DNA of 64,000 nucleotides from an uncultured bacterium. Its GTDB lineage: Bacteria; Patescibacteriota; Minisyncoccia; Phycocordibacterales; GWA1-40-21. Location: the NCBI GenBank assembly GCA_903850545.1, contig CAINLW010000009.1:2311-66310 (forward strand), in the 5' to 3' direction. Position 1 is the stretch's first letter; each line of letters begins with the position of its first letter. The notes below the pieces were generated by a model that was given only the letters and a program-made list of their open reading frames with translations, searched no databases and was not told the origin of the DNA. A program made the position numbers and the translations under genes. Below are positions 23,254-45,704 of this stretch, piece after piece.

Positions 23254-23922
23254 ATGACAGTGTATGATAAACCACAACCGAAATCAGATGCTCTTGATCA
23301 TATTCGTATAGCAGTAGCCTTGATTCCTACAGAGCCTCTTTTTTCTAATATTATTGAGGCCAGTCAAGCTATAACTCGCCAATTTCAGAATTTTAACATT
23401 ATTGATAAAAATGTTTTTCCTCCTCATGCGTGCCTACATATTTGCACCATATCCAAAGACAAATTGCCACATTTCCTAAAAATAATTAATCAATTGTCCA
23501 ATACAACTTTCCCAATTTTTGATCCATCTATACTAATCAAGGGATCAACGGGCTACATCTCTTTTCAATTAAATATTTCCCCATTGATTCGTTCACTTCA
23601 CGAGAGTGTGTTATCAGCCGCTTTGACTGTTCGGGGAGATGACTATCAGGAAGACCCCGCTCGTTTAGCTCGCCTTTCGGTAGCTGACAGATTGAGCTTT
23701 CAGAAATATGGCAATCGTTTTATCTTCGACAAGTTCAATTTACACATATCCATTGCAAAGGTTGCGCAAGAACATCAAGATGAGGCTTTTGAAATCGCCA
23801 AAACGATCTTAAGCACACCTAAGGCAACGCCCGCAGCTGCTATTCAAGTTTGCGACATCGGAATGCGGAGCGAAAAATGGATCGTTTTATATAGTAAGAA
23901 AATGCAGGGAAAACGTCATTAA
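23254..23922 (+). CDS. 2H-phosphoesterase-like (LigT-like) protein, tentative
   Basis: Two H-x-[ST/C]-x-like motifs about 100 aa apart (PHACLHICTI and NLHISIAKV). GC content above the local average. Confidence 0.3.
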   Translation: MTVYDKPQPKSDALDHIRIAVALIPTEPLFSNIIEASQAITRQFQNFNIIDKNVFPPHACLHICTISKDKLPHFLKIINQLSNTTFPIFDPSILIKGSTGYISFQLNISPLIRSLHESVLSAALTVRGDDYQEDPARLARLSVADRLSFQKYGNRFIFDKFNLHISIAKVAQEHQDEAFEIAKTILSTPKATPAAAIQVCDIGMRSEKWIVLYSKKMQGKRH

Positions 23923-25238
23923 TTTAAATATATAGTTTTATCTTTCAAACTTATTTTACTTTTTAAACATCCCAGTAGTTCTCTCTTTTCTATATCTTTT
24001 CCTTCTCTAAGAATATATTTCGCATAATTTTTAATATCTATATCGGCTATTAGTATTTTTTCATTATTTCCGAGTATCATGTGATTAAATTTTTTGATTT
24101 CTTCAACTTTCGCTTTTATCTTCTCTTTTATTCCAATTTCATCTATATCAATTTTTTCAATTAGGGTTTCAAATTGTTTTATTAGATCTATTTCGTTTAT
24201 ATAACCTCCTTTGCAATTCCTGTCTCTTACCCTGGTACAGCTATAATAGACATGCCTGTGAATATTGCCGTTTTTTTGTTTTTTAAACTTTTCATCTGCT
24301 GTAATTCCAGATCCACAAAGTCCACAAGTCATTAATTTGGTAAAAGCAAATTCCTTACTTTCTGATTTAATAATCTGACTTTTTACTTGATTTTGTACTT
24401 GATCAAACAGTTCTTTGGTAATAAGTGGTTCATGTTTACCCGTATAGAAATTTCCACTTTTTAGTGGATATTCGAAAACTCCATAATAATACGGGTTTCC
24501 TAAAAGTTGATATATATTTCCGAAACTTAATCCTTTGTTACTTTTTACACTTTTGAAATTAATCTCAAACTTCAACCAATTATAGATTTTGTGACCACTC
24601 CATTTCTCATACGCCACCTTTTCAAACATTTTCTTGATTACCGGAGCTCGTTGATGATCAATTACTACGTATCCTTTTCTATCAACCCTTTTTTCGTTCA
24701 AATATCCTACTGGTGGAGGTCCTGGTCTTAATCCCATTTCACATTTAGTTCTTAACCCACGTTTTACATTTACTGATTTATTATCATTTTCTAATTTTGC
24801 TTGAGAACATAAAATCATTAATAAGAACTTTTCGTTTGGTGAATTTATAAATGATTGTCCATAAGTTCTTATTTGTAAAAGTAGTTTCTGATCCATTAAA
24901 TCAACAAGTGATCCAAGATCGCCAGCGTTTCTAGAAAGCCTATCTGGTGCCCAAGTAAGTATTCCGTTAAATCTTTCTTTTCTTATATCTTCAAGTATTT
25001 CTTTAAATATGGGTCTTTGTCCTGAATCTTTAGCTGAATGAGACTCTCTCCTTATATCAATAATCTCAAGTCCTTCTTTTTCAGCCAGTTCAAGCATTTC
25101 TTTTACTTGGGATTCTATAGATAAGATTTGGCGCTCCTCAGATTCTGTACTTTTTCTAGCATATAAACAATATTTAATCTTTGCGGTTGGTATTACAACC
25201 CTTGTACCAATCAAAGCGTTTGTCGCCTGTATTTCCAT
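23919..25238 (-). CDS. Large serine recombinase (resolvase/invertase catalytic domain + recombinase domain + Zn-ribbon)
   Basis: YCLYARKSTESEERQ..SIESQ catalytic-serine region. C-terminal Cys pairs (CGLCGS..CTRVRDRNCKGG). Confidence 0.8.
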   Translation of the reverse strand: MEIQATNALIGTRVVIPTAKIKYCLYARKSTESEERQILSIESQVKEMLELAEKEGLEIIDIRRESHSAKDSGQRPIFKEILEDIRKERFNGILTWAPDRLSRNAGDLGSLVDLMDQKLLLQIRTYGQSFINSPNEKFLLMILCSQAKLENDNKSVNVKRGLRTKCEMGLRPGPPPVGYLNEKRVDRKGYVVIDHQRAPVIKKMFEKVAYEKWSGHKIYNWLKFEINFKSVKSNKGLSFGNIYQLLGNPYYYGVFEYPLKSGNFYTGKHEPLITKELFDQVQNQVKSQIIKSESKEFAFTKLMTCGLCGSGITADEKFKKQKNGNIHRHVYYSCTRVRDRNCKGGYINEIDLIKQFETLIEKIDIDEIGIKEKIKAKVEEIKKFNHMILGNNEKILIADIDIKNYAKYILREGKDIEKRELLGCLKSKISLKDKTIYLN

Positions 25239-25424
25239 GTATTAATGGTGTCAGAGATAGTGTCTTTTGCTAAGCGATAGCTTGTTGGCAACTTTTCTTA
25301 GCAGAATAACTAATTAGCGATATGATCAAGGTAGATTAATAATTTAAAAAGAGTTATTATGTGTAGGACAACTAAATAAGAAGTAGCCTAAACCAGTAGT
25401 AATACTGGCATGGTGAAAGTAAGT

Positions 25425-25510
25425 CCGTTGAAGATAAAAAACCCATCATGTGGGATTTGTCTTCAACGGCCGTATCTGGAAACAGGTATGGAGGGTTCAA
25501 ACCCTCACTC
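25425..25510 (+). other. Structured region upstream of the recombinase: a 10-bp perfect inverted repeat plus a tRNA T-arm-like hairpin; candidate attachment site
   Basis: ccgttgaaga..tcttcaacgg (25425-25469). gaggg-TTCAAAC-ccctc (25491-25506) fits the TPsiC arm consensus, but no complete tRNA could be folded. Confidence 0.3.
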
Positions 25511-25570
25511 ACGTGATGGGCTTTTTGTTTTTCATCACTGGGTTTTAATAACAATTAATAATCTAATGAT

Positions 25571-26206
25571 ATGAAAATTCTCAGAAATATTTTGGGTATA
25601 GGTATCGGTCTTGTTTCTATTGGTTTGTTATTTAGTAAACCAATTTCAGGTATCGTAGGTCTTATTTTTGCAATAAGCTTTTTACCAAAAACGTGGTCTT
25701 ATCTTTCTAAGAAATATAATTTAAATATTCCTAAGCTCTATAAAATATTAATCGTTGTTGTATTACTTTTTGTTTTCTTTAGTCTTTTACCTCAATCAGC
25801 ACCTCAAGTCCAAAATGTTATTAACAATGAAGCTAGTTCAACTACAAATATAATTGATAAAGAAAAAACACAAAGTCTAAATGGTGGTATTAAGTTTAGT
25901 CTTGATAAGGATTACGGATTCGGTGTCATCACTGTTACAAACAAAGATAGCTTTGATTGGAAAGATTGTGTCTTTTCAGTTCCTCTTGCAAAAACTAATC
26001 CTCTTACAATATTAAAAGGAGATTATATGCCTATAACAGCATCTGATTTCTTTAATGATCCTGAGTTTAATAATGGTGGAAAACAAATGACTATGGATGA
26101 TGGCACTTTCAGAAATATAGGAGGTGCTATTAATGTCCAGTGCAGTAATGGTCAAAGCTCAATTGATAATGTTGCTAAAAATTTTAGTAATATAACTGTA
26201 AAATAA
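25571..26206 (+). CDS. Secreted/membrane-anchored hypothetical protein
   Basis: N-terminal hydrophobic segments. Thr/Asn-rich. Confidence 0.4.
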   Translation: MKILRNILGIGIGLVSIGLLFSKPISGIVGLIFAISFLPKTWSYLSKKYNLNIPKLYKILIVVVLLFVFFSLLPQSAPQVQNVINNEASSTTNIIDKEKTQSLNGGIKFSLDKDYGFGVITVTNKDSFDWKDCVFSVPLAKTNPLTILKGDYMPITASDFFNDPEFNNGGKQMTMDDGTFRNIGGAINVQCSNGQSSIDNVAKNFSNITVK

Positions 26207-26210
26207 AATT

Positions 26211-26927
26211 ATGAAAAAAAAGATAATAGTTCTATCTTTCTTTTCACTCCTTATGATAGGGGGTGCTTCAACCGTATTCGCTATTTATGGTATCCAAACA
26301 AAAATAATTAATTGTGTCGCTAACCAAACTTTACAAGACCCTGCTTGCACTCCAGGAGCAGTTTTAACGACGAGTACAACTACAATTTGTAAAACTGGTT
26401 ATACAACAACGGTTCGTGACGTTTCAGTAGCTACCAAAAAGAAAGTTTTTAAGGAATATGGCATTGATTATTCTTTACATTCAAATTATGAAGTTGATCA
26501 TCTAATCAGCCTTGAGCTTGGAGGAAGTAATGATATATCGAATCTTTTTCCCGAGTCATATTTGATTAAAGATAATGCCAGAATAAAAGATAAACTAGAA
26601 AACTATTTGCATAGTAAAGTTTGCAGTGGAAAAATGTCTATCACCGAAGCTCAAAAAGAAATATCAACCAATTGGCTTTATTATTACGATCTTTATTACA
26701 ATGTAAAAGTCGCAACAACTTCAAAAAGCGTTTTACCTGCGACAACTACTTCTATTGTTCCCACCAAATCAATAGCCACATCTTCTACAAATTTTCCCTC
26801 AGTAAAGAAAAGTTTAACTGGTCTTTGCCATGCTTTAGGCACAAGATATTATACTCAGACTTTAAATTACACAGGTTACAATTCGATTGGCGCTTGTTTG
26901 GCAAGTGGAGGAAAATTACCGAAATAA
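26211..26927 (+). CDS. Secreted HNH-family nuclease
   Basis: Signal-peptide-like N-terminus. HNH signature YEVDHLISLELGGSNDISNLFPE. Confidence 0.6.
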   Translation: MKKKIIVLSFFSLLMIGGASTVFAIYGIQTKIINCVANQTLQDPACTPGAVLTTSTTTICKTGYTTTVRDVSVATKKKVFKEYGIDYSLHSNYEVDHLISLELGGSNDISNLFPESYLIKDNARIKDKLENYLHSKVCSGKMSITEAQKEISTNWLYYYDLYYNVKVATTSKSVLPATTTSIVPTKSIATSSTNFPSVKKSLTGLCHALGTRYYTQTLNYTGYNSIGACLASGGKLPK

Positions 26928-26928
26928 A

Positions 26929-28455
26929 TTATCTAAAAAACGGTTTCCAATTTGCTCCAGTAATACCCATAGCTTGGTCAAGATCACTCTCATTAGTATG
27001 ATGATTACTATGATAAATATAACTAATGGATGGTGTACTTTTTGAATCCTCAAACATTTGTAAGATAAGCATTGTCGTGGCGTCAACCAAATCGTCATGC
27101 TTTTCTTTTCCGAAACCCAATATTTGTTCCACTAACTCCTCATTACCTTTATCAGCAAAAACTACACGTCCAAGTTCAATTAAAGCAGAAACAGCCATAA
27201 GTCGATCCTCTTTACTCCAACCTCTTACTGGAAATGGTCTGGCTGGTATTCCCTCAGCCCTTAAGAGATCTGTGATAATTCCTTGGAAGTTTACATCTTC
27301 AACATACACTCGGGAATATGATCCATTATCAGGATTTCGTGAAAGACTTTTAACTCTGCTGATTATTTGGTCAGTAGTTAACCTCGCATTTACTGGATTT
27401 GGTAAAATGTACAATTTTCTATCTTTTCCTGAACCATAGATTTTACCCGAAACCATAGCTGTGTAATCTGCGCCAGCCTTTTGTGATCTTGCAGGGTCAA
27501 TTGAAAGAGCACTGAATCTTAGACTTACTCCAACAGGCAGTTCAGAATAGTGGTGAATATGTTCTCTCTTAATAATCTGATAATCGTTATCGACGATTCT
27601 TAACATATACTCTCTTTGCCAAGTTAGGTCACTAAAACATTTTGATTTTTCATCATCTATATCTTTTTGTGTTTTAAATTTGCCAGGCCAAAGTGGTACA
27701 TTATTTTCATCAATAATTGGAAATTTTCTGAAAACATTTCTTGGATCATTGTTTTGAAAGAATTTTTCCATTCTCATGAGTGTCGAATCGTTGTGCAAGG
27801 GCGTGCCGATGAAAACAAGTTGAGTGTTTCTTTCACCTGCGGGTATGACATCACCTGTTAGCCAGTCATACATTTTATCTCTGTTTTCTTGTGTTCGTAC
27901 TGAATCCGAATCTTCTATATCGTCAGCGATGATCAAGTCTGGTCTATGCTGAAAATGCCTTATACCTCGAATATTTTGCCCAATAGAGCGAGTTGAAATA
28001 TTAGCTCCATATTGAGGAAGAAGAATAGACTGTGTTCCTTCCTGATCGACTTCTTCTTTGAATGGTCCGAAGTCACGTCTAAAGTCATCATTTTCTTCCA
28101 ATTCCTTTTTTATATCGGTAAGGTGTATCTGAGTACTTAGTTGTGTGTGACCTAGAATAAGGATAAACTTTTTCTGCTTTACGCCGACAATTGACCAGAT
28201 GACATACGAAAGAGTGATAATGGTGCTTTTGGCGCTACCCCTAAAAGCGGTAATAACGATATTACGAAGATCAGGATTTTCCGTGAGGTTGAAAATTTCT
28301 CTGTGGAAATCCGCAGTTGGAAATTCTGCATACTTTCTACCGAAGTAATAATGGAAAAACCAATAATGGCTTTTCCTTACCATTGCTAGACGGAATGTTT
28401 TATCTTTAATCATCTGATCGATAATATATTCCTCACTAGGATTTAGGTTGTTCAT
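26929..28455 (-). CDS. Phage terminase large subunit
   Basis: ATPase motif ITAFRGSAKST. Terminase-like length and C-terminal nuclease-like region. Overlaps the upstream small subunit by 20 nt. Confidence 0.75.
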   Translation of the reverse strand: MNNLNPSEEYIIDQMIKDKTFRLAMVRKSHYWFFHYYFGRKYAEFPTADFHREIFNLTENPDLRNIVITAFRGSAKSTIITLSYVIWSIVGVKQKKFILILGHTQLSTQIHLTDIKKELEENDDFRRDFGPFKEEVDQEGTQSILLPQYGANISTRSIGQNIRGIRHFQHRPDLIIADDIEDSDSVRTQENRDKMYDWLTGDVIPAGERNTQLVFIGTPLHNDSTLMRMEKFFQNNDPRNVFRKFPIIDENNVPLWPGKFKTQKDIDDEKSKCFSDLTWQREYMLRIVDNDYQIIKREHIHHYSELPVGVSLRFSALSIDPARSQKAGADYTAMVSGKIYGSGKDRKLYILPNPVNARLTTDQIISRVKSLSRNPDNGSYSRVYVEDVNFQGIITDLLRAEGIPARPFPVRGWSKEDRLMAVSALIELGRVVFADKGNEELVEQILGFGKEKHDDLVDATTMLILQMFEDSKSTPSISYIYHSNHHTNESDLDQAMGITGANWKPFFR

Positions 28456-28846
28456 TTGAGTTTTGATTATTATTTGGTAATGCTAGACGGAGGGCTTCAC
28501 GAAGTAATTTTTCTTGCTCTGGATCGAGGATTTCTTTTTCGTTTTTTATCGTTCCTACTATCTCAACCTTTTCTTTGAATTTTGGATTTCGATGCCTTAA
28601 CCAAAAAGAAAGGGCATTCCAATTTTTTTCTTTTATAAGTGTGAGCAGTTGGCTTTCGGAAATGTCATTGATTAAGGCTTCACCGTCGGCTAATGCTTCT
28701 TCCATATCTTTTGCAAATTCCTTATCTGTATTTTTCCACCTATACAAGCTGACTCTAGATATTGCTACTTTTTCACAGGCAACCTCAATAATCGGAATTT
28801 TTCTTAACTCTACCAGAAACTGATTTTTTACTTTATTCTTTTTCAT
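28436..28846 (-). CDS. Phage terminase small subunit-like helix-turn-helix protein
   Basis: ISRVSLYRWKN helix-turn-helix. Position immediately upstream of the terminase large subunit. Confidence 0.45.
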   Translation of the reverse strand: MKKNKVKNQFLVELRKIPIIEVACEKVAISRVSLYRWKNTDKEFAKDMEEALADGEALINDISESQLLTLIKEKNWNALSFWLRHRNPKFKEKVEIVGTIKNEKEILDPEQEKLLREALRLALPNNNQNSNEQPKS

Positions 28847-30122
28847 AGTAGTTGTGAATTATTTTTGCTTGTTTTCCTGTGAGTTTTAAAAATCTTCTTA
28901 TGGCTAAGTCGATATATATTGGCTGAAGCTCTAGACCATAAACTTTTCTTCTGAGTTGCTCTGCCGAAATTAATGAGCTTGCGGACCCGAGGAAGCTATC
29001 TAATATAATATCTCCGACCTTTGTACATCTTCTGATAATTTTTGAATATAAATTCGTTGGTTTGGAAGTTGCATGTTCCATTTCTTTGCCAGATAATCTT
29101 CTAACCGCCCAGACGTTGAGACAATCAAGGACTTGATCAAACATATCGTTTCCAGTCGTCATGTCCCCATTCATTACCTCATTGAGATTTTGAATGTTTG
29201 GAGCGATATATGGATGACCTCGAAGCCCGTAGGTACAAGGTTCATAGCACTTTGAAAAAGCAATACCTGGGGTCGGGTTTTGTGACTGCTTCAACCATAG
29301 ACACACTCTTTTGTTTTGTATTCCAAAACTTCTATATAATTCTTGTATAAAACCAATATAGATTTGGTCTGAAAAATAAAAGAAATTAACATCATACTTA
29401 GATACAGATAATGCTCCTGCCATGCTTTTTCTAAGGAATTCTTTATATTCAGTGTCGGTTCTATTATCGAGGACTTCACCGCCATAATTTTTTGATCCAC
29501 CTAATCCAGATTTGTAGTTATAATTTATATTGTAGATTGGATCTGAACATACCATTGACGCTTTTTCTTTTCCGAAAAGTTTTTTAACAGCCTCAGCATC
29601 CGTGCTATCTGCACACAAAATTTTATGATCTCCTAATATGACGAGATCACCAAGTTTTGTTTGTGGAATTTTAATTTTGGCTAACTCAATTTTTTCGTCA
29701 AAGTTATCATCCTCAGTTTTTAACTCATCTCCCCAAACTTTTGAAAGATCTATATCACTTAAACCAATGTCAGACAGCAAATCCATCTTAAAATCTTTTA
29801 ATTTTTCAAAATTCCATTGCCCATCATTTAAATTACTTTCGAGACCAATTTTTCTTCTTTCGTCTTCAGAAAGTTTGCGACTTGGGACAAGCACATTAAC
29901 CTCTTTTATCTTTAATTTCATAAGCGCAACCTTCCTTTGGTTGCCAGATAAAATTGTGTTATCTGCATCAATAACAATTACAGCATGAAAACCATGCTGT
30001 TTAATTCTATCCACTAGTCTAGCCATGTCCGGTTTTGTAATCCTGCGAGGATTCGCTTTCCAAACGACTAGTTCTTCGACCTTCCTAACTTCTGCGTGCC
30101 AAACTAATTTTTGTTGAGACAT
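28833..30122 (-). CDS. ParB-like nuclease domain fused to a DNA methyltransferase (N4/N6 type)
   Basis: N-terminal ParB-like region. SDPIYN (DPPY-like) and ILDSFLGSASS (SAM-binding) motifs. Confidence 0.65.
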   Translation of the reverse strand: MSQQKLVWHAEVRKVEELVVWKANPRRITKPDMARLVDRIKQHGFHAVIVIDADNTILSGNQRKVALMKLKIKEVNVLVPSRKLSEDERRKIGLESNLNDGQWNFEKLKDFKMDLLSDIGLSDIDLSKVWGDELKTEDDNFDEKIELAKIKIPQTKLGDLVILGDHKILCADSTDAEAVKKLFGKEKASMVCSDPIYNINYNYKSGLGGSKNYGGEVLDNRTDTEYKEFLRKSMAGALSVSKYDVNFFYFSDQIYIGFIQELYRSFGIQNKRVCLWLKQSQNPTPGIAFSKCYEPCTYGLRGHPYIAPNIQNLNEVMNGDMTTGNDMFDQVLDCLNVWAVRRLSGKEMEHATSKPTNLYSKIIRRCTKVGDIILDSFLGSASSLISAEQLRRKVYGLELQPIYIDLAIRRFLKLTGKQAKIIHNYYEKE

Positions 30123-30216
30123 AAATTTTATTTATGATTAATTAATAAAGTCGTGATTTCTCACGACCCTATTAAACACCATAAAAATAAATAGTTTGGA
30201 AAAAATTGGTCCAGAA

Positions 30217-30954
30217 TTATCCAAAAAGCTTCTTACGCATTTTATCTAAACTTCTTTTAGCATCATATACTTGTTGTGATTTTTTTCTGGATCCAAAATG
30301 TTCCTCGGCGAGGTCTCTCGCTGTTATTTTTTCGGTATATTTTTCTCTATCTTTTTGCCAATTCTCAAACGTAAGCCGTTTAATTGTAGCCTTTGTTATT
30401 TTGTTGATTTTTGGAAAATCCTTCGTCCTTTCTTTAATTAAACGCAGTAAGGATAACTGTTCATTTTTTGTAAGCCTAGAATATATTTCTATTTTTGCTA
30501 CGCGTTCTGTTTTTATATCCCATAGGTATGAAAAATTATCAGTAGGTATAAAATCAAATTTATTGTGAAGGATATATCGTCTTATAACACTGACAAGGTG
30601 AGAAGGTAAATTAAAATTATCTATAACATAATTACTAGCGTCAGTTAGAATATTTGCATGAAGATTTTCTCTGAGGAGTAGATTTAGTTGTTTATTTGCC
30701 ATATTTCGATCTAATTCACCAGATTTCATTTTTTCTCTTAGATACTGATTGTGTCTTTTGTAGTTTTTCGAGTTCAGATATTCACGATCTTTTTCCTCCC
30801 AATAATTTATCCATCTTTCGACTTCTTCATTTTTTGAAAAACCTGATTCAGGTATCTTTAAAAGAATCCGTATTGATTTTATGTAAACCTGAAACTTATC
30901 ATGACCGATTAATAGAGTTAGAAGTTGGACGTTGTTAGATTTGTTAATCATCAT
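30217..30954 (-). CDS. Hypothetical protein (first gene of the packaging-module transcription unit)
   Basis: 245-aa basic protein. No motif recognised. Confidence 0.35.
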   Translation of the reverse strand: MMINKSNNVQLLTLLIGHDKFQVYIKSIRILLKIPESGFSKNEEVERWINYWEEKDREYLNSKNYKRHNQYLREKMKSGELDRNMANKQLNLLLRENLHANILTDASNYVIDNFNLPSHLVSVIRRYILHNKFDFIPTDNFSYLWDIKTERVAKIEIYSRLTKNEQLSLLRLIKERTKDFPKINKITKATIKRLTFENWQKDREKYTEKITARDLAEEHFGSRKKSQQVYDAKRSLDKMRKKLFG

Positions 30955-31034
30955 TGTATTATATCCTAAAAATCCTTTGAAATATAGTAAAAATATGTTA
31001 TAATAATTATATAAAATGTTTTATTTGTATTAAT

Positions 31035-32573
31035 ATGGATCAAACAGAAATATCTATGGAAACGAGTAACAACCAACAAGGCAGTCAATCTACAAAGGGA
31101 GTATATTTTTCTGAGATTTTTGGTGTTCAACACTCAATTATTGAAAAATATGGAGCACTGGATATATCGCTTGTTTGTGACAATCCAGCTTTTGTGGATC
31201 CCTTTCTTATCTTCGCAAATCCTAAATATAGTAAGCTTCATGAATATATAATTAATTATCTTAAATTTTTAAAAGATCTTTCTTCAAAGAATAAAGGAAA
31301 TATACTAAGTGTGGGTGACTTTAAACATTATTATAAATTCCCCGAAGTTAAACAGGTATGGCTTGGTTATTCGCTTAGTGGTAATGGTGGTTTGGGTCTA
31401 GGTATAGAGTTTGCTAGGTCTCTTTATAAAAATTTAAATGAAATATTTTCTGAATTTGGTGACGAAGATATAACAGAAACGGCGCACTTAGAGAAACTGT
31501 GTTTAGTAGAAGATGGCATAGGAGTTGATAAGATTAGTGATTTTACTTTAAATCTAATAAAAATATTTATTCTTGAATATACTCAAGAATTTGCTGAAAA
31601 TTTTTTGGATAAAAAATTCCTATCTGTTTTTGCTGTAAAGAAGACGAGTTTTGATTTTACAAATCAGATTTGGCAGGACGGTTCCTTCAATCTGCCCTCA
31701 ATAGAAATAAATGGGAAAAAACAGTTCGTATTACTTGTTCCAAAAAATATTATAACGAAACACGATAATTGGATTTCAAAAAATGATTTTCTAAATAATG
31801 ATACCTCCATTTTTAATACCATAGAAAATGATGAGTTAAGGACAAAAATTAACAAGTATTTTCTTGATAATCTTTTGACAAAATTTAATAGAGAAAAAAA
31901 GATCGTGAAAGACTTCTCGAGAAAAAGTAAAGTAGTAGCTTTGTCGAAAACCGTTGCGGAGTTTCCTGAGACGCTAGATTACTATATTAGATTCAAAGAA
32001 AACAGAAAAGCTGAAGCATTATTGTCACATGTGGCCAATCCAGAAGAAATTAACCATTTTTTTGATACCTCCATCTTACAGGGTGAATTAGGCGTAAAAA
32101 AGTTTGAAAAGATGTCTTCGTTTGATGATTGTGTTTCTAGAATAGCCTTTTTCAAGAACACCCTAGAATCTAACAGTAAAAAGTTATACATAAAGGATAA
32201 GCCGTTGGAAGAAAAACAACTTCAATTAATGTTCAAGATGGTTACTTTTGATAGTTTGTTTAATTATGATTCCGAAGTAAATAACGGAAGAGGTCCAATT
32301 GATTTTATAATTTCTTATGGAAGTGGTGATAAGACAGGTCTAGAACTTAAGCTAGCTTCAAACACAAAACTAAAAAAGAATCTTAAAAACCAAGGTGTTG
32401 TTTACACTAAAGATTCAAATCTAAAACATGTCATAAAAATAATTTTCTTTTTCTCCGATAAAGAATTGGAAAGAGTGAACAAAATCTTTAAGGAATTGGA
32501 CAAGGTGGTTGATAATAATGAGTTTTTTCTAATTGATTGTCGTAAAAAAGATTCTGGATCAAACCAGGAATAA
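31035..32573 (+). CDS. Hypothetical 512-aa protein with a C-terminal PD-(D/E)xK-like motif
   Basis: GRGPIDFIISYGSGDKTGLELKLASN (D..ExK pattern) near the C-terminus. First gene of a tight four-gene cassette. Confidence 0.4.
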   Translation: MDQTEISMETSNNQQGSQSTKGVYFSEIFGVQHSIIEKYGALDISLVCDNPAFVDPFLIFANPKYSKLHEYIINYLKFLKDLSSKNKGNILSVGDFKHYYKFPEVKQVWLGYSLSGNGGLGLGIEFARSLYKNLNEIFSEFGDEDITETAHLEKLCLVEDGIGVDKISDFTLNLIKIFILEYTQEFAENFLDKKFLSVFAVKKTSFDFTNQIWQDGSFNLPSIEINGKKQFVLLVPKNIITKHDNWISKNDFLNNDTSIFNTIENDELRTKINKYFLDNLLTKFNREKKIVKDFSRKSKVVALSKTVAEFPETLDYYIRFKENRKAEALLSHVANPEEINHFFDTSILQGELGVKKFEKMSSFDDCVSRIAFFKNTLESNSKKLYIKDKPLEEKQLQLMFKMVTFDSLFNYDSEVNNGRGPIDFIISYGSGDKTGLELKLASNTKLKKNLKNQGVVYTKDSNLKHVIKIIFFFSDKELERVNKIFKELDKVVDNNEFFLIDCRKKDSGSNQE

Positions 32574-32611
32574 GGAACTGGAAAAGATTATAACTAATTT
32601 TTAGGAAAAAT

Positions 32612-33679
32612 ATGGAAAAACATCTCAAACCATATCAATACTACTCGGACTTGTACGACAAATACACTGTTGAAAGGTGTCGTAATCTGGAGAAAATTGA
32701 TAATGACATAAAATTGCCAGAGGATAAAATCACAAAAGAAAAGCAACAACATTTTAAAAAAGCTTTTTCCAAACTTCACATGTACTTTGAAACAGGAGAA
32801 GATTACCTAGGGAAATCCAAGAGGATAAACGAATGGATGGAAAGAGATAAAAAATACGATGAATTATATGAGCAGGCAAAAGCCCCAGAAAATATCACAT
32901 GTTTATCTTGTGGTCGTTTGATGTTTGTTGAATCGAAACATCTTGATTTTGCAAATAATGACAAAAGAGATCGGGTGATGTTCTTTTATGATTGCCCCCT
33001 AAAACATAAACCGATGCGTGTTTTTTACGATGACGGGGAAGAATATAGGGTCAAACCCCACATTTGTCCAAAATGTAGTTCATCTTTTAGCGAAGAATCA
33101 AAAAAAGAAAAAGATATAATCTATATTACTTATACTTGTTCGAAATGCGGTTTTATCGAAAAAACTGATTTAGACCTGACTATTAAAGAAGAAAAAATTG
33201 ATCTAGATTTTATTAAAGATCGTAATCGTTTCTGCTTATCTGAAGCCGACGGGCAAAAATATATGGAAGCCAAAGTAAACATAGAGAATCTCAGCAAAAT
33301 AATGGATAAATATAAAGAAAAAGAGAAAAATAAGAATTTATATGATAAGGTGGCGAAACTAAAAAAATTAAAAATTATAGAATTAGAAAAACTACTTACT
33401 CCTATACTTGAATCGGCAAATTATGTTAAGCTCCAATTTCAAACTCCGCAGGTAAGCAAGGATGTTTTTGTCCCATTCATAGTTTATGATTCCAAGAGTG
33501 AACGCTCCGAATACGATAGTAAACATAATCTACAAAAACTCTTAAAAACAAAACTAGAGGATACTAACTGGCGTTTGATGAGTGATGGAGTTAATTATCG
33601 CTTAGGTATGCTTGAGTGGCGTTTAAGAGCTTATGAGCGTGAGGAAGATTTGATTAAGCTAATTGAAGATATAAAATAA
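32612..33679 (+). CDS. Hypothetical Zn-ribbon protein
   Basis: Three CxxC pairs (CLSCG, CPKC, CSKCG). Confidence 0.4.
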   Translation: MEKHLKPYQYYSDLYDKYTVERCRNLEKIDNDIKLPEDKITKEKQQHFKKAFSKLHMYFETGEDYLGKSKRINEWMERDKKYDELYEQAKAPENITCLSCGRLMFVESKHLDFANNDKRDRVMFFYDCPLKHKPMRVFYDDGEEYRVKPHICPKCSSSFSEESKKEKDIIYITYTCSKCGFIEKTDLDLTIKEEKIDLDFIKDRNRFCLSEADGQKYMEAKVNIENLSKIMDKYKEKEKNKNLYDKVAKLKKLKIIELEKLLTPILESANYVKLQFQTPQVSKDVFVPFIVYDSKSERSEYDSKHNLQKLLKTKLEDTNWRLMSDGVNYRLGMLEWRLRAYEREEDLIKLIEDIK

Positions 33680-33687
33680 ACAAATCA

Positions 33688-34479
33688 ATGAACATAAAAA
33701 AGTTTCCCAACCCAAAATTAAATTTACCAAAGGATTTGAAAAAGAAAGCTAAAGAAGACCCCGCTTTATTTTTTAAGTATGTAGATAATTATATTAATTT
33801 AGTTGGTAAATACATTTATACAGATATTAATCTTGACTATCAACCAGTGGACGATAATCACATCCATGCTTGGATACAACGAATAGTGAGTGCAAATCTG
33901 TTAAGAAGTCTATATATTCGTAATGAATTTGTAGAGACGATAAATACTAGAAATTTCGTTGGAATGTTTTTACCACTCAAGGCGTGGTTTGAAATAGTTG
34001 GTGTTCTAGCATCAATTCTAGATTTACTAGAGAAAAAATTGTCGAAAGAAGATTTAAGAGAAAAATTAGAACCATATTGCTTAGGGAACAGAGGGATAAC
34101 AAAAATTGGTGAAGTTGAGTCAATAAATGTTTTAACCATGATAAATAAAGCCAACCGATATCTTGAAAAAATGCAAAAAGAAGTTCAAAATAAAGATAAG
34201 GCATCTCCTGAAACTTTTTTTACCAGTTTTTATGATACAGCAAGTAATCCATCACACCCAAGTTTTGATTCTATGGAAATGGTGGGTTTTCTAGATGAAG
34301 AAAGTGGAACTTGGCGCGCCGAATTGCCAGATAATATAAAAGAAAAAATCGTCACGAGTATTGATGGCTACGGTGGATTACTAATGTCACCACTATTTAT
34401 TGAAAATATTTGTCAAAAAATTTTTCTAATAGAAAAAGACAAATTTTTTAAACTAAAAAGTAAAAAGTATTTTGATTAA
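33688..34479 (+). CDS. Hypothetical protein
   Basis: 263 aa. 8-nt gap from the previous gene. Confidence 0.4.
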   Translation: MNIKKFPNPKLNLPKDLKKKAKEDPALFFKYVDNYINLVGKYIYTDINLDYQPVDDNHIHAWIQRIVSANLLRSLYIRNEFVETINTRNFVGMFLPLKAWFEIVGVLASILDLLEKKLSKEDLREKLEPYCLGNRGITKIGEVESINVLTMINKANRYLEKMQKEVQNKDKASPETFFTSFYDTASNPSHPSFDSMEMVGFLDEESGTWRAELPDNIKEKIVTSIDGYGGLLMSPLFIENICQKIFLIEKDKFFKLKSKKYFD

Positions 34480-34496
34480 TTTATCAAATTAAAACA

Positions 34497-34898
34497 ATGT
34501 TTAATGCCACAACTACACCAATACCAGATTTTACAAAAGAAATGGTTACCCAGATTATTCAAGCATTTGATAAGTTACCATTACAAACCGCTAATATCAT
34601 CTGGTCTATTTTTATTTCAATCTTAAAAGCAGATTGGCCTATTTTATTACTAATACTTTTTATAATTGTTTTAGTCGCGACTCTTAAGATGATGATTGGC
34701 CACTGGGGTATGTTTGGTAGTGTTATTTATAATATCTTGTATTTTGGAGTGCTATTAATTATAGGTCTATTTAAGGGCCCAGAGGTTTTTGTAAGTGATT
34801 TTTATAAGCCATTTTGTCTGATAATACTTTACCCCTTGTGTTATTGGATTACTGGATCAATACTAGATTTGGTTAGAAATAGATTTGGGCGAAGATAA
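34497..34898 (+). CDS. Small multi-pass membrane protein
   Basis: 133 aa with about 3 hydrophobic segments. Confidence 0.4.
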   Translation: MFNATTTPIPDFTKEMVTQIIQAFDKLPLQTANIIWSIFISILKADWPILLLILFIIVLVATLKMMIGHWGMFGSVIYNILYFGVLLIIGLFKGPEVFVSDFYKPFCLIILYPLCYWITGSILDLVRNRFGRR

Positions 34899-34899
34899 A

Positions 34900-35338
34900 A
34901 AGTTACACTCAACTGTAACTTTTTAGATCAATCCTGTGTTACTTTTGTAACTATTTAAATAGCTCTTGTCGCGTCGTTTTGATACACTTAAAAGCGTCAA
35001 AATGACCTTGTGGGGCTTGGCCGACCACGGCTCTGTCTCTAGTCGCTCAGCATTAAGTTTAAGTGGTCTGTTTTGGAAAAAATATTCGCGTCGCTACGCG
35101 ACTGTAACAACGTTTCTGCGAGAATTTGCCACGGCATTTTGAAATCCACAGAAATCGAACAGTACGTGTATATATGATTTTGTGAAAAAGATTCCTGACA
35201 TCGTTTTCTGATTAATTAAGTATATTTTGACTTTCAAGCTAAAATGTGACACTATCGAAATTAGGTCTGAAGAATTTAAAAATCAGATAATATCTGCACT
35301 TTAAAAAAACAATCAGTAATATTAAGGAGGAGGGAGAA
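34900..35338 (+). other. GC-rich structured leader/intergenic island in front of a GC-rich gene
   Basis: Helices gtcgttttga..tcaaaatgac and cgcgtcgc-tac-gcgacg. Ends in a perfect Shine-Dalgarno sequence AAGGAGGAGGGAG. Confidence 0.3.
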
Positions 35339-36313
35339 ATGAACGATAATAAGATACACTTCAGTAACGTGCCGTTTATGGCATATGTCGAGAGCATGGG
35401 AGACGAATTGATAGAATGTACTCCAGTGGTATACGGCGATGGACTCAACTATGGCATCAGTGTGTTATTTCCCAACATGGAAAGTATCACATGGGGTCTG
35501 GTGACACCCAGAAACCTCATCACTGCATGGCGTGGGACAGAAATACTGCGTCATATCCACACCATCGAGAACGGAACACTCTGCGCAGCCTACTACACGG
35601 GTATACGCAGTCCTCACGAGAGTGATATGAAGTCGTACGTGGAACCGATCATCAAAAAAATTGGTCGGGATGTGTACGACACAATCATGTCAATGACCGT
35701 ACCCGAACAAATAATAAGGGCAATACTCGACAATCAGAATGGTGATTCCAAACCTGATCTTTACCCGATAACTGACGAAGTACGGGCGGGAACCATCGAG
35801 TGGCGACAAGAGTTCGTCGAATTCGGGATCAAGCACCCTGATGATGTCGATAACGAAGAGAGGTTGCAGAAAGAGACAATCGCTAAATTCGAACGCCTAC
35901 TGGCTTCCTATGCAAGATCGAGAAGTATACCGAGAAACTGTATGGGTATGAATTACGTCGAGAGTGCTCTATTGACTCTCGTCGACAAGAAAGCCAACGA
36001 GGAACATTCGGATAACGTACTTATCGCTCTCTCAGGTGTCGTCGGCGAACTAAGTATAACGAACTTCGCAGCATTTATATTACCGTTTGGCATTAGTAAT
36101 CAGGCGGAATATGATGCACGAATTAACAAAACCAAGGAGGAAGCACTTGAGTATTCGGCGTCGTGGCTGGCTTCAATTTCTAAACCACCGTGGTTTAGTT
36201 TTCTTAGAAAGAAAGAGACTGTCTCATTCACCTCAGAAAATGCAACGAAGTTGCTCAGAGAATTACTTGAAAAGTATTTTCCCAGAAGGAAAAAGTTAGT
36301 TACTTTTGTGTAG
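35339..36313 (+). CDS. Hypothetical protein encoded by a compositionally atypical (higher-GC) gene
   Basis: 324 aa. Strong Shine-Dalgarno sequence. Codon usage is visibly richer in G/C-ending codons than neighbouring genes. Confidence 0.5.
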   Translation: MNDNKIHFSNVPFMAYVESMGDELIECTPVVYGDGLNYGISVLFPNMESITWGLVTPRNLITAWRGTEILRHIHTIENGTLCAAYYTGIRSPHESDMKSYVEPIIKKIGRDVYDTIMSMTVPEQIIRAILDNQNGDSKPDLYPITDEVRAGTIEWRQEFVEFGIKHPDDVDNEERLQKETIAKFERLLASYARSRSIPRNCMGMNYVESALLTLVDKKANEEHSDNVLIALSGVVGELSITNFAAFILPFGISNQAEYDARINKTKEEALEYSASWLASISKPPWFSFLRKKETVSFTSENATKLLRELLEKYFPRRKKLVTFV

Positions 36314-36568
36314 TCTAGTTCCAATCCTTACAACTCAACTGATGTTTGTTTGACGTTTATCTATACACCAAACTAGGAGAACTGGTGGAAAAATAAGCAA
36401 GAGGTCCCGGCTATTTTCAGCGGGACCTTTTACTTTTTATTTTATTTATTAACTACATAAATATTATAATTTTATAATTCACAAAAATTTTTGTTTAACA
36501 AATTTATCAAGATTATATTTTAGTAATTTTGTCCAGCATTTTTATTAAATTTTGATATAATACCCTAT

Positions 36569-37441
36569 ATGGAATTTATAGAGCCCGAAATCAAATATGC
36601 ACTTAACTTGCTTTTAAAAGAGCGAGCGATAGAAAGAATGGAAAAAATAGGCAATGTTTGGATTGGACCAGATATTTCTTTGGAAAAAAAAGTGATTATT
36701 CCTCCTCTCGCAACTGTTAGAAATATTAATATTGTGGTAAGTAAATCTGATTTACCACCAATAGAAATTGATAGAGGGACTTTTAGTGCACTGCGCTGGT
36801 CTGTTCGAAGTTGTCACGCACAATCAGGAACCGACATAATATTTCATCATTCGAATTTGTCTGATGAAATGATAAAAGATATAAGTGATGGAAAAAGTGT
36901 CTCAATACCAGTAGATATAATGAGTGTTTTAGATAGACCAGTTGAGCTAGAGGGAAATATTATGCGTTTCTTTTGGGTAAATGAGATTAATCGTCTGAGA
37001 CATGAAAAATTACGTGAAGTGGTAGGGAAAGAATTAATAATTGATGGAAAAGAAGGAACAGATTGGTCATATGGCGATTCTACAGAAATTACTGAGAAAG
37101 GAAAATATCCAAATGAATATTATAAAGATTTATGTCTTGTGATTTCATTAAAAGAAAAATATCATATTCCTCCTTCAACTGAAATATTAAAAGTAAATAG
37201 CAAAAAAGATTTACCAAATGTTTTACAAAAAATACCAGTTGGTGAAAAAGCATACTTTTCAGTGGGTGAAACTGTAAATGTAAAATTTGGGAAAAATATC
37301 GTAGGAGTTTTAGTTGCTAGAGGTTATGAACAAGGCATTCATCTTTATTCTCCTTTGATTGATTCTGGCTTTGAAGGTCCCATTAGAACCGAAACCTTAT
37401 TTGGTCTTAAAGAATTAGATCTTTATATATATAAAAAATAA
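36569..37441 (+). CDS. dCTP deaminase/dUTPase-superfamily protein with an N-terminal extension
   Basis: C-terminal VGVLVARGYEQGIHLYSPLIDSGFEGPIRTE matches the dCD/dUTPase motif. Confidence 0.4.
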   Translation: MEFIEPEIKYALNLLLKERAIERMEKIGNVWIGPDISLEKKVIIPPLATVRNINIVVSKSDLPPIEIDRGTFSALRWSVRSCHAQSGTDIIFHHSNLSDEMIKDISDGKSVSIPVDIMSVLDRPVELEGNIMRFFWVNEINRLRHEKLREVVGKELIIDGKEGTDWSYGDSTEITEKGKYPNEYYKDLCLVISLKEKYHIPPSTEILKVNSKKDLPNVLQKIPVGEKAYFSVGETVNVKFGKNIVGVLVARGYEQGIHLYSPLIDSGFEGPIRTETLFGLKELDLYIYKK

Positions 37442-38220: not shown

Positions 38221-38310
38221 TGGGAGTAAGCTCGTTTCGGCTAGTAATATTCACGGCATTTTGATGTTTAATCTATTGTTATAAATATTGTATAATCATA
38301 TTTATAATAT

Positions 38311-39786: not shown

Positions 39787-40035
39787 ATGTATTACCTCTA
39801 TATTCTTAAATGCGCTGATAAAACCCTATATACTGGAATTACAACAGATTTGAAAAGAAGAATTTTTGAACATAATAATACAAAACTTGGTTCAAAATAT
39901 ACTTCTTCTCGAAGACCGGTAAAAATTGTTTACTTTAGAAAATATAAAAATAGATCACTTGCTTCAATAGATGAGGCTAGGATTAAAAAATTAACAAGGA
40001 AAGAAAAAACCAAGTTAATAAATAAGAAATTGTAG
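39787..40035 (+). CDS. GIY-YIG nuclease-domain small protein
   Basis: YYLYILKCADKTLYTGITTDLKRRIFEH. Confidence 0.65.
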   Translation: MYYLYILKCADKTLYTGITTDLKRRIFEHNNTKLGSKYTSSRRPVKIVYFRKYKNRSLASIDEARIKKLTRKEKTKLINKKL

Positions 40036-45384: not shown

Positions 45385-45582
45385 AAAAAAAACAACTGAC
45401 TTTGTAACAACGGGAGGAAAACTTACATGGACAGATGTAGAGTCCAAAATTGCTGCTACTAAAGCTGCTAAGGAGGCAGAAATAAGGTTAAAAGAAGAAA
45501 AGATAGCAGAATTAAGAAAAAGAACAGGACTCTCGGTGCATGAAGCACCAGAAAGCAGGTAAGTAGACAGTAGTAAATATCA

Positions 45583-45620
45583 GCCCCGCCCGGAGTAATC
45601 TGGGCGGGGCTTTCAACTTT
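45583..45620 (+). terminator. GC-rich hairpin terminator
   Basis: gccccgccc..gggcggggc followed by TTTC. Confidence 0.45.
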
Positions 45621-45657
45621 ATATAATTAGTTTTGAACTCTGTCTTTGAAATTAAAG

Positions 45658-45695: not shown

Positions 45696-45704
45696 GCTGA
45701 GAGT

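What the first reader, a model, noticed from the sequence alone, without database searches (positions are those of the whole stretch)
31035..34898. Tight four-gene cassette of unknowns in the prophage-like region: candidate defence/abortive-infection system
Four plus-strand ORFs with 8-38-nt gaps sit between the phage packaging/methylase module and a GC-rich foreign-looking gene. The first is 512 aa and carries a C-terminal PD-(D/E)xK-like motif, GRGPIDFII..GLELK. The second is 355 aa with three CxxC Zn-ribbon motifs. The third is 263 aa and unknown. The fourth is a 133-aa multi-pass membrane protein. A predicted nuclease-fold protein plus Zn-ribbon partners and a terminal small membrane protein is a recurring architecture in phage-defence and abortive-infection operons, and the mobile-element context fits. 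None of the four matches a family I recognise.
Basis: inference. Interest (0 to 1): 0.65.

Follow-up and report, generated by a model that had tools for sequence, protein, structure and literature searches.

The report
Mosaic cargo operon, not one system
The four tightly packed genes are real and probably transcribed together, but they are separately travelling accessory genes carried by a small integrated mobile element of a Patescibacteria genome, and only the first has a clear prediction, as a stand-alone nuclease of an untested family often found inside restriction-modification systems.

Summary
All four plus-strand ORFs exist at the stated coordinates, with 38/8/17-nt gaps. One strong promoter-like site lies upstream, there is no internal terminator, and a hairpin follows gene 4.

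They are not a conserved four-gene system. Across about 190 fetched loci the four co-occur only in near-identical strain copies.

- **Gene 2 (two zinc ribbons)** is known only from Patescibacteria-type sequences. It lies near restriction-modification genes or the recombinase/terminase/ParB-methylase backbone also present in this window.
- **Gene 4 (small membrane protein)** is adjacent to gene-2 homologues in four independent loci. One of these has a HEPN protein in place of gene 3.
- **Gene 3** occurs alone elsewhere.

Verdict: a mosaic cargo array. The defence flavour is plausible and the single-system reading is not supported. Interest is moderate to low.

The parts
30977..31004 (+). Promoter-like site (TTGAAA, 16 nt, TG-TATAAT; 11 of 12 matches) 31 nt upstream of the gene 1 start codon
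   Evidence: This is a consensus match only. It is the best-scoring site in 30100-36600.
31035..32573 (+). Gene 1 (P1), 512 aa. N-terminal DUF8370 domain (about aa 23-300) with invariant D49, D55-P-F, H151-x-E153 and D165-x-x-S-D169. C-terminal DUF8371 domain, a PD-(D/E)xK nuclease (about aa 380-510; E393, D423, E437-x-K439, Q453-xxx-Y457).
32612..33679 (+). Gene 2 (P2), 355 aa. Long helical hairpin (aa 8-88), beta domain with two zinc ribbons (C97/C100/C128/H132 and C152/C155/C176/C179), helices (200-268), and a C-terminal ferredoxin-like alpha/beta domain (271-354). The family is known only from Patescibacteria-type sequences.
33688..34479 (+). Gene 3 (P3), 263 aa, helical by sequence. Invariant R73-S74, N86, N89, E102, Y182 and N187-x-x-H190 (the 'SNPSHPS' motif). 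It fills a variable slot between gene 2 and gene 4.
   Evidence: 57 homologues, none with a Pfam domain. Alignment. DUF5677 matches only below threshold, in 4 of 24 members, best E 0.0012. Contexts. Absent between the gene-2 and gene-4 homologues in L108 and L116, and replaced by a HEPN protein in L113.
34497..34898 (+). Gene 4 (P4), 133 aa, a small membrane protein with three to four hydrophobic segments. It recurs next to gene-2 homologues.
   Evidence: 79 cluster representatives, 43 at E<=1e-10. Hydropathy. Adjacent to gene-2 homologues in L108, L113, L116 and L152.
34898..34924 (+). Perfect 10-bp AT-rich hairpin (AAAAGTTACA / TGTAACTTTT, 6-nt loop) ending in a T run, overlapping the gene 4 stop codon. 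Candidate terminator of the unit.
   Evidence: Read directly. The scan did not list it because it has fewer than 3 G-C pairs. That scan found no terminator-like site on the + strand within 31035-34898.
23919..25238 (-). Large serine recombinase at the left end of the element (context)
   Evidence: Resolvase, Recombinase and Zn_ribbon_recom domains. Homologues at 56-80% identity lie next to gene-2, gene-3 or gene-1 homologues in L011, L014, L096, L097, L105/106, L118, L135 and others.
25385..25506 (+). LOOT RNA (Rfam RF03000), part of the same element family (context)
   Evidence: 85.6 bits against a gathering score of 46.4. Also found above the gathering score in L096 and L105/L106, which share the backbone.
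26929..30122 (-). Backbone module: TerL (26929-28455), TerS (28436-28846) and a ParB-like N6/N4 DNA methylase (28833-30122) (context)
   Evidence: Within 8 kb of gene-2 homologues, the methylase occurs in 28 of 86 loci, TerS in 24 and TerL in 10.
30217..30954 (-). 245-aa ORF of unknown function, divergent from gene 1. No family match and no homologue in any fetched locus.
35339..37441 (+). Two further cargo ORFs of unknown function: 324 aa (35339-36313, in a 43% GC kilobase) and 290 aa (36569-37441). They are followed by host-like genes for a metallo-beta-lactamase-fold protein and an ABC-F protein.
   Evidence: They accompany genes 1-4 only in the near-identical strain copies L004-L006.

Best explanation
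The four ORFs form one transcription unit in the variable cargo region of an integrated Patescibacteria mobile element. The element spans roughly 23.2-37.4 kb of the window. Its backbone is a large serine recombinase, a LOOT RNA, TerL, TerS and a ParB-methylase, and no capsid or tail genes were seen.

The unit is a mosaic of independent modules, not one machine.

**Module A: gene 1.** It is a self-contained two-domain enzyme of the DUF8370-DUF8371 family. The N-terminal domain has an invariant cluster of acidic and histidine residues. I infer that this is a sensing or second catalytic site. It is fused to a BamHI-like PD-(D/E)xK nuclease. Because the family recurs alone inside or beside RM operons, I infer that it is a stand-alone defence nuclease. 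It could be a modification-dependent (type IV-like) enzyme. Alternatively it could be a second-line nuclease guarding an RM system, in the way PrrC guards EcoprrI. Either way it would cut invading, or in an abortive scenario cellular, nucleic acid once the N-terminal domain is triggered.

**Module B: genes 2 and 4.** A zinc-ribbon, probably nucleic-acid-binding, protein is loosely but recurrently paired with a small membrane protein. The slot between them is variable. Here it holds gene 3, in L113 it holds a HEPN RNase-type protein, and in L108 and L116 it is empty.

**What is shown:** the ORFs, the operon-like layout, the fold and catalytic motif of gene 1, and the distribution and neighbourhoods of all four genes.

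**What is inferred:** any defence function, the role of the gene 1 N-terminal domain, and any interaction between genes 2, 3 and 4.
For: **Layout.** Gaps are 38/8/17 nt. There is one strong promoter-like site and no internal terminator, and a hairpin after gene 4.

**Element.** Host-like genes lie to the left (S51 peptidase, tRNA_edit, NUDIX) and to the right (MBL-fold, ABC-F). The same backbone order, <REC <TerL <TerS <MT ... P2>, occurs in L097 and L111. The backbone carries a gene-1 homologue in L105/L106 and gene-3 homologues beside the recombinase in L011 and L014. LOOT RNA recurs with the backbone.

**Independence.**
- Gene 1 family: at least 990 hits. It was found in 80 genomes from Patescibacteria to Actinomycetota, 8 viral contigs and 17 plasmids.
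- Gene 2 is nearby in only 2 of the 88 genome and viral loci. Genes 3 and 4 are in none.
- The closest independent gene-2 relative (L108, 78% identity) has gene 4 directly downstream. It has no gene 1 upstream and no gene 3 between.

**Gene 1 function.**
- The catalytic residues are kept in at least 65 of 67 homologues.
- Homologues are embedded as HsdM-HsdS-[P1]-HsdR, HsdM-[P1]-x-HsdS (L017), EcoRI-type methylase-[P1]-GmrSD and methylase-helicase-GIY-YIG-[P1].
- The commonest neighbours are N6_Mtase, Eco57I, ResIII, Methylase_S, N6_N4_Mtase, RhuM and GmrSD.
- PDC-M36 was itself defined by embedding in BREX, DISARM or type I RM systems.

**Gene 2 with gene 4.** They are adjacent in L108, L113, L116 and L152, with overlapping start and stop codons in L113 and L116. 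The middle gene of L113 is HEPN_Cthe2314 (6.5e-10). A second small membrane family, c12, is adjacent to gene-2 homologues in 4 further loci.
Against: - No experiment exists for any of the four families. All annotated homologues are 'hypothetical protein'.
- Gene 1 matches only the N-terminal half of PDC-M36A, and that candidate is itself untested.
- Roughly two thirds of gene-1 loci show no RM or defence gene within two genes, by my rough reading of the counts.
- The tight spacing and single promoter are what a functional operon would also look like. A lineage-specific functional combination therefore cannot be excluded.
- Gene 4 accompanies only about 5% of gene-2 homologues. A small membrane protein next to a given gene is not rare by chance.
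- Gene 2 is linked to the TerS/methylase backbone in a third of loci. It could therefore serve the element's own life cycle rather than defence.
Confidence: 0.6

Rival explanations
1. The four genes form one integrated defence or abortive-infection system. In this reading it would consist of a nuclease effector, zinc-ribbon and helical partners, and a membrane protein.
For: Tight spacing, one promoter-like site and no internal terminator. Cargo position in a mobile element. Nuclease fold in gene 1. The arrangement is kept in seven contigs.
Against: Those contigs carry 100%-identical proteins from one sample series, so they are strain copies. In about 190 fetched loci the four never co-occur. 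Gene 1 is solitary in 86 of 88 independent loci. Gene 3 is never seen with the others. The closest independent gene-2 relative lacks genes 1 and 3.
Confidence: 0.06
2. The genes serve the mobile element's own biology rather than host defence. For example, gene 2 could be a regulator or a replication or packaging factor linked to the TerS-TerL-methylase module. Gene 4 could be a holin-like or exclusion protein. Gene 1 could be a nuclease used by the element.
Confidence: 0.2
3. Gene 1 is an ordinary type II restriction endonuclease whose partner is a neighbouring methylase. In the window that would be the ParB-like N6/N4 methylase at 28833-30122.
For: The best structural matches are BamHI, OkrAI, BglII and BstYI. 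A methylase is the commonest neighbour (N6_Mtase 9, Eco57I 8, N6_N4_Mtase 4+2). An EcoRI-type methylase lies directly upstream in L001 and L020.
Against: Most of the roughly 73 loci have no methylase within two genes. The neighbouring methylases are of many unrelated types, which argues against a fixed cognate pair. Sequence conservation is unusually high: 60-77% across distant lineages, and motifs are kept down to 23% identity. A 370-aa conserved extra domain is present. In type I operons the gene is an insert between complete hsd genes.
Confidence: 0.1

Closest known systems
Pfam DUF8370 (PF28123) + DUF8371 (PF28130) proteins; PHROG phrog_30194
   Same: Gene 1 is a full-length member. The identical protein in the public collection carries both domains. 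phrog_30194 matches residues 23-510.
   Different: Nothing differs. These are names without a function. All annotated plasmid homologues are 'hypothetical protein'.
PADLOC phage-defence candidate PDC-M36 (Payne et al., bioRxiv 10.1101/2024.01.29.577857). It was predicted by 'guilt-by-embedding' in BREX, DISARM or type I RM systems and is untested.
   Same: The N-terminal half of gene 1 matches PDC-M36A (4.3e-17). Gene 1 homologues are likewise embedded in type I RM operons.
   Different: Only profile positions 30-246 of 457 match. PDC-M36 is a three-gene cassette, FAM_01399>>FAM_00303>>FAM_00303. None of genes 2-4 matches any PADLOC model.
PrrC/EcoprrI (and RloC): an anticodon nuclease embedded in a type I RM locus and held latent by it (from my own knowledge; Payne et al. 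also note PrrC as almost exclusively embedded in type I RM)
   Same: The genomic logic is the same. A solitary nuclease gene is inserted between hsdS and hsdR (L002/L003) or between hsdM and hsdS (L017).
   Different: There is no sequence or fold relationship. PrrC is an ABC-ATPase-type protein with an anticodon-nuclease domain, whereas gene 1 has a PD-(D/E)xK domain. In the window itself gene 1 is not inside an RM operon.
BamHI-like type II restriction endonucleases (BamHI, OkrAI, BglII, BstYI)
   Different: Identity is 8-12%. Gene 1 has an extra 370-aa conserved domain, no obligatory methylase partner, and far higher conservation than restriction enzymes usually show.
Defence or 'moron' cargo hotspots of prophages and phage satellites, such as the P2/P4 hotspots (from my own knowledge)
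   Same: A conserved backbone of recombinase, packaging genes and methylase carries different accessory genes at the same positions in different copies.
   Different: This is a Patescibacteria element with a serine recombinase, a LOOT RNA and no visible structural genes. No cargo gene here has a demonstrated defence function.

Membership tests
DUF8370/DUF8371 protein family (Pfam PF28123 + PF28130) | Both domains present in one polypeptide of about 500 aa | tested here: met
   The identical protein P0001 carries both precomputed domains. Fragment mapping places DUF8370 at the N-terminus and DUF8371 at the C-terminus. The local Pfam copy predates these models, so this rests on the precomputed hits.
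PD-(D/E)xK nuclease superfamily (gene 1 C-terminal domain) | Restriction-endonuclease-like alpha/beta core fold | tested here: met
PD-(D/E)xK nuclease superfamily (gene 1 C-terminal domain) | Conserved catalytic D ... (D/E)-x-K residues | tested here: met
   D423 is kept in 66 of 67 homologues, E437 in 67, K439 in 65, E393 in 65 and Q453 in 65. All are invariant in the 29 close homologues.
PD-(D/E)xK nuclease superfamily (gene 1 C-terminal domain) | Metal-dependent nuclease activity | not testable with these tools
   This needs purified protein.
PADLOC candidate system PDC-M36 | Full-length match to PDC-M36A | tested here: inconclusive
   E 4.3e-17, but only residues 48-275 match, against profile positions 30-246 of 457.
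PADLOC candidate system PDC-M36 | Partner genes of the cassette (FAM_00303 twice) adjacent | tested here: not met
   Genes 2-4 and both flanking unknown ORFs have no PADLOC hit at E<=0.1.
   They occur together only in 100%-identical strain copies. They are not together in 88 gene-1 loci, 86 gene-2 loci or 8 gene-3 places.
Type II restriction-modification pair | A cognate methylase adjacent in essentially all members | tested here: not met
   Methylase domains occur in about a quarter of the neighbours examined, and they are of several unrelated types.
RM-embedded accessory defence genes (PrrC-like genomic logic) | Gene inserted between the subunit genes of a complete type I RM operon, on the same strand | tested here: met
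   This is met for homologues: HsdM-HsdS-[P1]-HsdR in L002/L003, and type I methylase upstream in 9 loci with HsdS downstream in 6 of about 73. It is not met for the window copy, which lies between an unknown 245-aa gene and gene 2.
HEPN / DUF5677 (gene 3) | Profile match above threshold; Rx4-6H motif | tested here: inconclusive
   DUF5677 scores 16.1 bits against a cut-off of 27.1. It matches 4 of 24 family members, with a best E of 0.0012. The conserved motif is S-N-P-S-H with no arginine. There is no relation to the HEPN protein of L113 (hhalign probability 0.2%).

The most novel reading that the evidence does not exclude
Genes 2-3-4 could be one instance of a Patescibacteria-specific modular system. 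In it a conserved zinc-ribbon protein (gene 2) and a small membrane protein (gene 4, or the unrelated c12 family) would frame an exchangeable middle gene. That gene is gene 3 here, a HEPN RNase-type protein in L113, and absent in L108 and L116. The zinc-ribbon protein would act as sensor or adaptor, and the middle and membrane proteins as alternative effectors. Separately, gene 1 could prove to be a widespread stand-alone defence nuclease with a second, still unknown active site in its N-terminal domain.
Probability: 0.15. Interest if true: 0.6.

Novelty: new member of a known kind. Interest (0 to 1): 0.35.

Why it matters
Patescibacteria (CPR) have tiny genomes, and very few of their defence genes or mobile elements have been characterised. 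This locus shows a small integrated element whose backbone recurs in many metagenomes with changing cargo. The backbone is a serine recombinase, a LOOT RNA, TerS/TerL and a ParB-methylase.

It also gives a concrete candidate for testing. The DUF8370-DUF8371 nuclease is pan-bacterial, highly conserved and repeatedly inserted into restriction-modification operons, and no function has been assigned to it. Showing that it restricts phages or plasmids would name two domains of unknown function and add a single-gene system to the defence catalogue.

The four-gene 'system' itself should not be pursued as a unit.

Tried and rejected
- **Family libraries.** Pfam, NCBIfam, PADLOC and PHROGs gave nothing significant for genes 2-4 or the flanking unknown ORFs.
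- **PDB sequence searches.** Profile searches for genes 1, 2 and 3 gave nothing significant.
- **Unavailable library.** The afdb50 fold library was not on the machine. The N-terminal domain of gene 1 therefore could not be compared with predicted structures.
- **Attachment sites.** A direct-repeat search for attachment sites around the element found nothing convincing. This is expected for a serine recombinase.
- **Gene 4 searches.** Close-relative scans of viral and metagenome contigs found nothing. An HMM of the gene 4 family found no copies beyond those that tblastn had found.
- **Gene 3 versus the L113 middle gene.** I tested whether the L113 middle gene is a divergent gene 3. It is not.
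- **Clade test for gene 2.** I tested whether gene-2 proteins with a gene-4 partner form one clade. They do not, and are scattered over the tree.
- **Membrane neighbours of gene 2.** A small multi-pass membrane neighbour was seen in 10 of 63 loci. That is close to what chance might give, so I do not use it as evidence.
- **Literature.** Searches for PDC-M36, DUF8370, DUF8371 and LOOT gave no functional information.
- **Exact window protein.** The look-up of encoding contigs holds no record for the gene 1 protein.


Full report
**1. Observation**

They are 31035-32573 (512 aa), 32612-33679 (355 aa), 33688-34479 (263 aa) and 34497-34898 (133 aa), with gaps of 38, 8 and 17 nt.

A near-consensus promoter-like site (TTGAAA, 16 nt, TG-TATAAT) ends 31 nt before the first start codon. 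No terminator-like site lies on the plus strand inside the block. A perfect 10-bp AT-rich hairpin overlaps the stop codon of the last gene. The four genes are therefore very probably one transcription unit.

The quoted motifs are real. GRGPIDF...GLELK is in gene 1, and gene 2 has three CxxC pairs plus a C...H pair. Gene 4 has three to four hydrophobic segments.

**2. Surroundings**

- Left of 23.2 kb lie ordinary cellular genes: an S51 peptidase, an ASCH-domain protein, a tRNA-editing domain protein, DUF1385 and NUDIX.
- From 23.9 kb come a large serine recombinase, a LOOT RNA (Rfam, 85.6 bits) and two small ORFs.
- Then, on the minus strand, come TerL, TerS and a ParB-like N6/N4 DNA methylase, followed by an unknown 245-aa ORF.
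- Next come the four genes and two more unknown ORFs. One of these is in a 43% GC kilobase, against a 31% background.
- From 37.4 kb cellular genes resume, starting with an MBL-fold protein and an ABC-F protein.

No capsid, portal or tail gene was recognised. This is a small integrated element of about 14 kb, not a complete prophage. I found no flanking direct repeats. Serine recombinases do not need them, so the ends are approximate.

**3. Gene 1**

*Family.* The protein has at least 990 relatives in the large protein collection. The best 120 are 46-77% identical over the full length. The identical protein carries two recent Pfam domains, DUF8370 and DUF8371. Fragmentary homologues map DUF8370 to the N-terminal 300 residues or so and DUF8371 to the C-terminal part. 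Gene 1 also matches phrog_30194 end to end. Its N-terminal half matches the PADLOC model PDC-M36A.

*Conservation.* In 67 full-length homologues, some only 23% identical, E393, D423, E437, K439, Q453 and Y457 are kept in 64-67. The same holds for an N-terminal set: D49, D55-P-F, H151, E153 and D165-x-x-S-D169. The nuclease prediction is therefore sound. The N-terminal domain looks like a second functional site. Whether it binds metal, binds a ligand or is catalytic is unknown.

*Distribution.* One species-per-genome scan found gene 1 in 80 genomes. These include Patescibacteria (63-69% identity), Legionellaceae, Thermomonas, Paracidovorax, Acidobacteriota, Bacteroidales, Clostridia and Gastranaerophilales (35-45%). 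They also include Actinomycetota and Alphaproteobacteria (23-27%). It is also on 8 IMG/VR contigs and 17 plasmids, always annotated 'hypothetical protein'. It is in none of 50,697 GenBank phage records.

*Neighbours.* The neighbourhoods seen were:
- HsdM-HsdS-[gene 1]-HsdR.
- EcoRI-type methylase-[gene 1]-GmrSD.
- Methylase-DEAD helicase-GIY-YIG-[gene 1] on a Paenarthrobacter plasmid.
- Inside a Tn3-type transposon on pSmeSM11a.
- HsdM-[gene 1]-x-HsdS in L017.

I scanned two genes on each side of about 73 loci. The commonest domains upstream were N6_Mtase (9), Eco57I (8), ResIII (5), N6_N4_Mtase (4), HSDR_N_2 (4) and phage integrase (4). Downstream they were Methylase_S (6), ResIII (4), RhuM (3), Eco57I (3) and GmrSD (2).

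PDC-M36 is one of 145 candidates that Payne et al. derived from genes embedded in BREX, DISARM or type I RM systems. It is a three-gene cassette and has not been tested.

*Conclusion.* Gene 1 is a solitary gene with the genomic habits of a defence gene. It needs none of genes 2-4. By tblastn, gene 2 is near it in only 2 of 88 independent loci and never adjacent. Genes 3 and 4 are near it in none.

**4. Gene 2**

*Family and structure.* It has at least 435 full-length relatives at 46-82% identity. None has a Pfam domain, and every organism name given is a Patescibacteria lineage. The model (pLDDT 87.2) shows four parts: a long helical hairpin, a beta domain holding two zinc ribbons, more helices, and a C-terminal alpha/beta domain. 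Invariant C97/C100/C128 with nearly invariant H132 form the first ribbon, and invariant C152/C155/C176/C179 form the second.

*Neighbourhoods.* I clustered the neighbours of 86 gene-2 loci.
- Backbone genes within 8 kb: ParB-methylase in 28, TerS in 24, recombinase in 12 and TerL in 10.
- Other recurrent neighbours: LexA/S24-like repressor in 11, and SNase in 7.
- Restriction genes: type IIG in 6, HsdM in 6, PLD-SNF2 helicase in 5, ResIII in 5, type ISP in 4.
- Host genes xseA/xseB in 4-5.

In L097 and L111 the order <REC <TerL <TerS <MT ... gene 2> is the same as in the window. Gene 2 is thus a frequent passenger of this element family and of RM islands, with changing immediate neighbours.

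**5. Gene 4 and the slot between genes 2 and 4**

Gene 4 belongs to a real family. It has 79 representatives at 50% clustering, 43 of them at E<=1e-10, all about 120-135 aa. Homologues lie directly beside gene-2 homologues in four independent loci:
- L116: gene 2 then gene 4, with a 4-nt overlap.
- L108: gene 2 then gene 4, the latter cut off by the contig end.
- L152: gene 4 then gene 2.
- L113: gene 2, a 260-aa gene, then gene 4, with abutting start and stop codons.

The 260-aa gene of L113 is a HEPN_Cthe2314 protein (6.5e-10). It is unrelated to gene 3 (hhalign probability 0.2%). L108 is the closest independent relative of the window's gene 2, at 78% identity. It has no gene 1 upstream and no gene 3 between.

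A second, unrelated small membrane family (c12, about 160 aa) is adjacent to gene-2 homologues in four further loci. Gene-2 proteins with these partners are scattered over the gene-2 tree.

This linkage is the only recurrent one among the four genes. It covers only about 5% of gene-2 loci. The raw frequency of small membrane neighbours (10 of 63) is not clearly above chance.

**6. Gene 3**

It has 57 relatives, again only from Patescibacteria-type sources and with no Pfam domain. Conserved residues include R73-S74, N86, N89, E102, Y182 and an S-N-P-S-H motif. DUF5677 matches stay below threshold.

Elsewhere it stands alone, in the following settings:
- Between DUF2726 and a homologue of the window's recombinase (L011).
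- After two tRNA genes and before the recombinase (L014).
- After RhuM (L013).
- Two genes from a type I HsdR/HsdS pair (L188).
- Overlapping the stop codon of a Schlafen/AlbA_2-HATPase_c_4 gene.
- Near a rolling-circle Rep gene (L189).

It has no viral-contig homologue.

**7. Synthesis**

The cassette is a real operon-like block, but its content is a mosaic. The same backbone carries different cargo in different copies. The backbone consists of the recombinase, LOOT RNA, TerL, TerS and ParB-methylase. Each of genes 1, 2 and 3 has its own distribution.

*Shown:* the coordinates, the layout, the fold and motif of gene 1, and the distributions.

*Inferred:*
- Gene 1 is a defence nuclease, either type IV-like or an RM guard in the manner of PrrC.
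- Its N-terminal domain senses or catalyses something.
- Genes 2 and 4 cooperate.
- Gene 3 occupies an exchangeable slot.

I put about 0.6 on this overall reading. I put 0.06 on a true four-gene system. I put 0.2 on the genes serving the element's own life cycle. I put 0.1 on gene 1 being an ordinary type II enzyme.

**8. Novelty and score**

Gene 1 is a new member of a family already catalogued as two DUFs. It is related to an already published but untested defence candidate. Genes 2-4 belong to uncharacterised families restricted to Patescibacteria.

A specialist would find nothing here very surprising. Cargo arrays of candidate defence genes on mobile elements are well known. The testable points are the DUF8370-DUF8371 nuclease and the possible gene 2 / variable gene / gene 4 module. 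Interest: 0.35.

Noticed in passing
window 25385-25506 (+); also L096 1-109 (-), L105 2646-2785 (+), L106 3158-3297 (+): A LOOT RNA (Rfam RF03000) lies beside the serine recombinase. The same RNA family passes its gathering score in three other loci that share the recombinase/TerS/ParB-methylase backbone (L105 and L106 look like two copies of one element). LOOT therefore appears to be a component of this Patescibacteria mobile-element family. No functional literature was found.
   Followed up: partly
window 23254-37441; L097, L111, L105/L106, L096, L118, L135: A recurrent small element backbone: large serine recombinase, TerL, TerS and a ParB-like N6/N4 methylase, with no recognisable capsid or tail genes in the stretches read. 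Different cargo sits at the same positions. It looks like a phage satellite or a degenerate prophage.
   Followed up: partly
window 35104-35142 and 38226-38264: A 39-nt direct repeat (74% identical, GTAAC..CGTTTC.GC.AG...CACGGCATTTTGA) lies upstream of both the GC-rich 324-aa gene and the ABC-F gene. It could be a shared regulatory or RNA element.
   Followed up: no
window 35339-36313 and 45001-46000: Two local GC peaks (0.43 and 0.45, against about 0.31). The first covers a 324-aa ORF with no family match. That ORF is found only in the strain copies of this locus.
   Followed up: no
L113 1573-2355: A HEPN_Cthe2314 protein sits between the gene-2 and gene-4 homologues, at the position gene 3 holds in the window. 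Its start and stop codons abut those of both neighbours.
   Followed up: yes
L017, L097, L115, L156 (cluster c12): A family of multi-pass membrane proteins of about 160 aa, with no Pfam match for the representative scanned, lies directly beside gene-2 homologues in four loci, on either side.
   Followed up: partly
window 39787-40035; L001 14555-14788, L030 14718-14954, L041 4616-4849, L166 15503-15736: A small 82-aa ORF has close relatives (45-67% identity) a few kb from gene-1 or gene-2 homologues in several unrelated loci. The L001 relative is a called gene with a GIY-YIG domain.
   Followed up: no
L111, L131, L152, L172, L173: Gene-2 homologues lie next to xseA (exonuclease VII large subunit) and a 78-aa gene that I presume is xseB (not scanned), usually directly downstream and once divergent. 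This suggests a preferred insertion spot.
   Followed up: no
L105 7489-8936 / L106 8001-9448: In this viral-contig copy of the backbone, the gene-1 homologue and the recombinase are each split into two ORFs. This may reflect decay or an assembly or frame problem.
   Followed up: no
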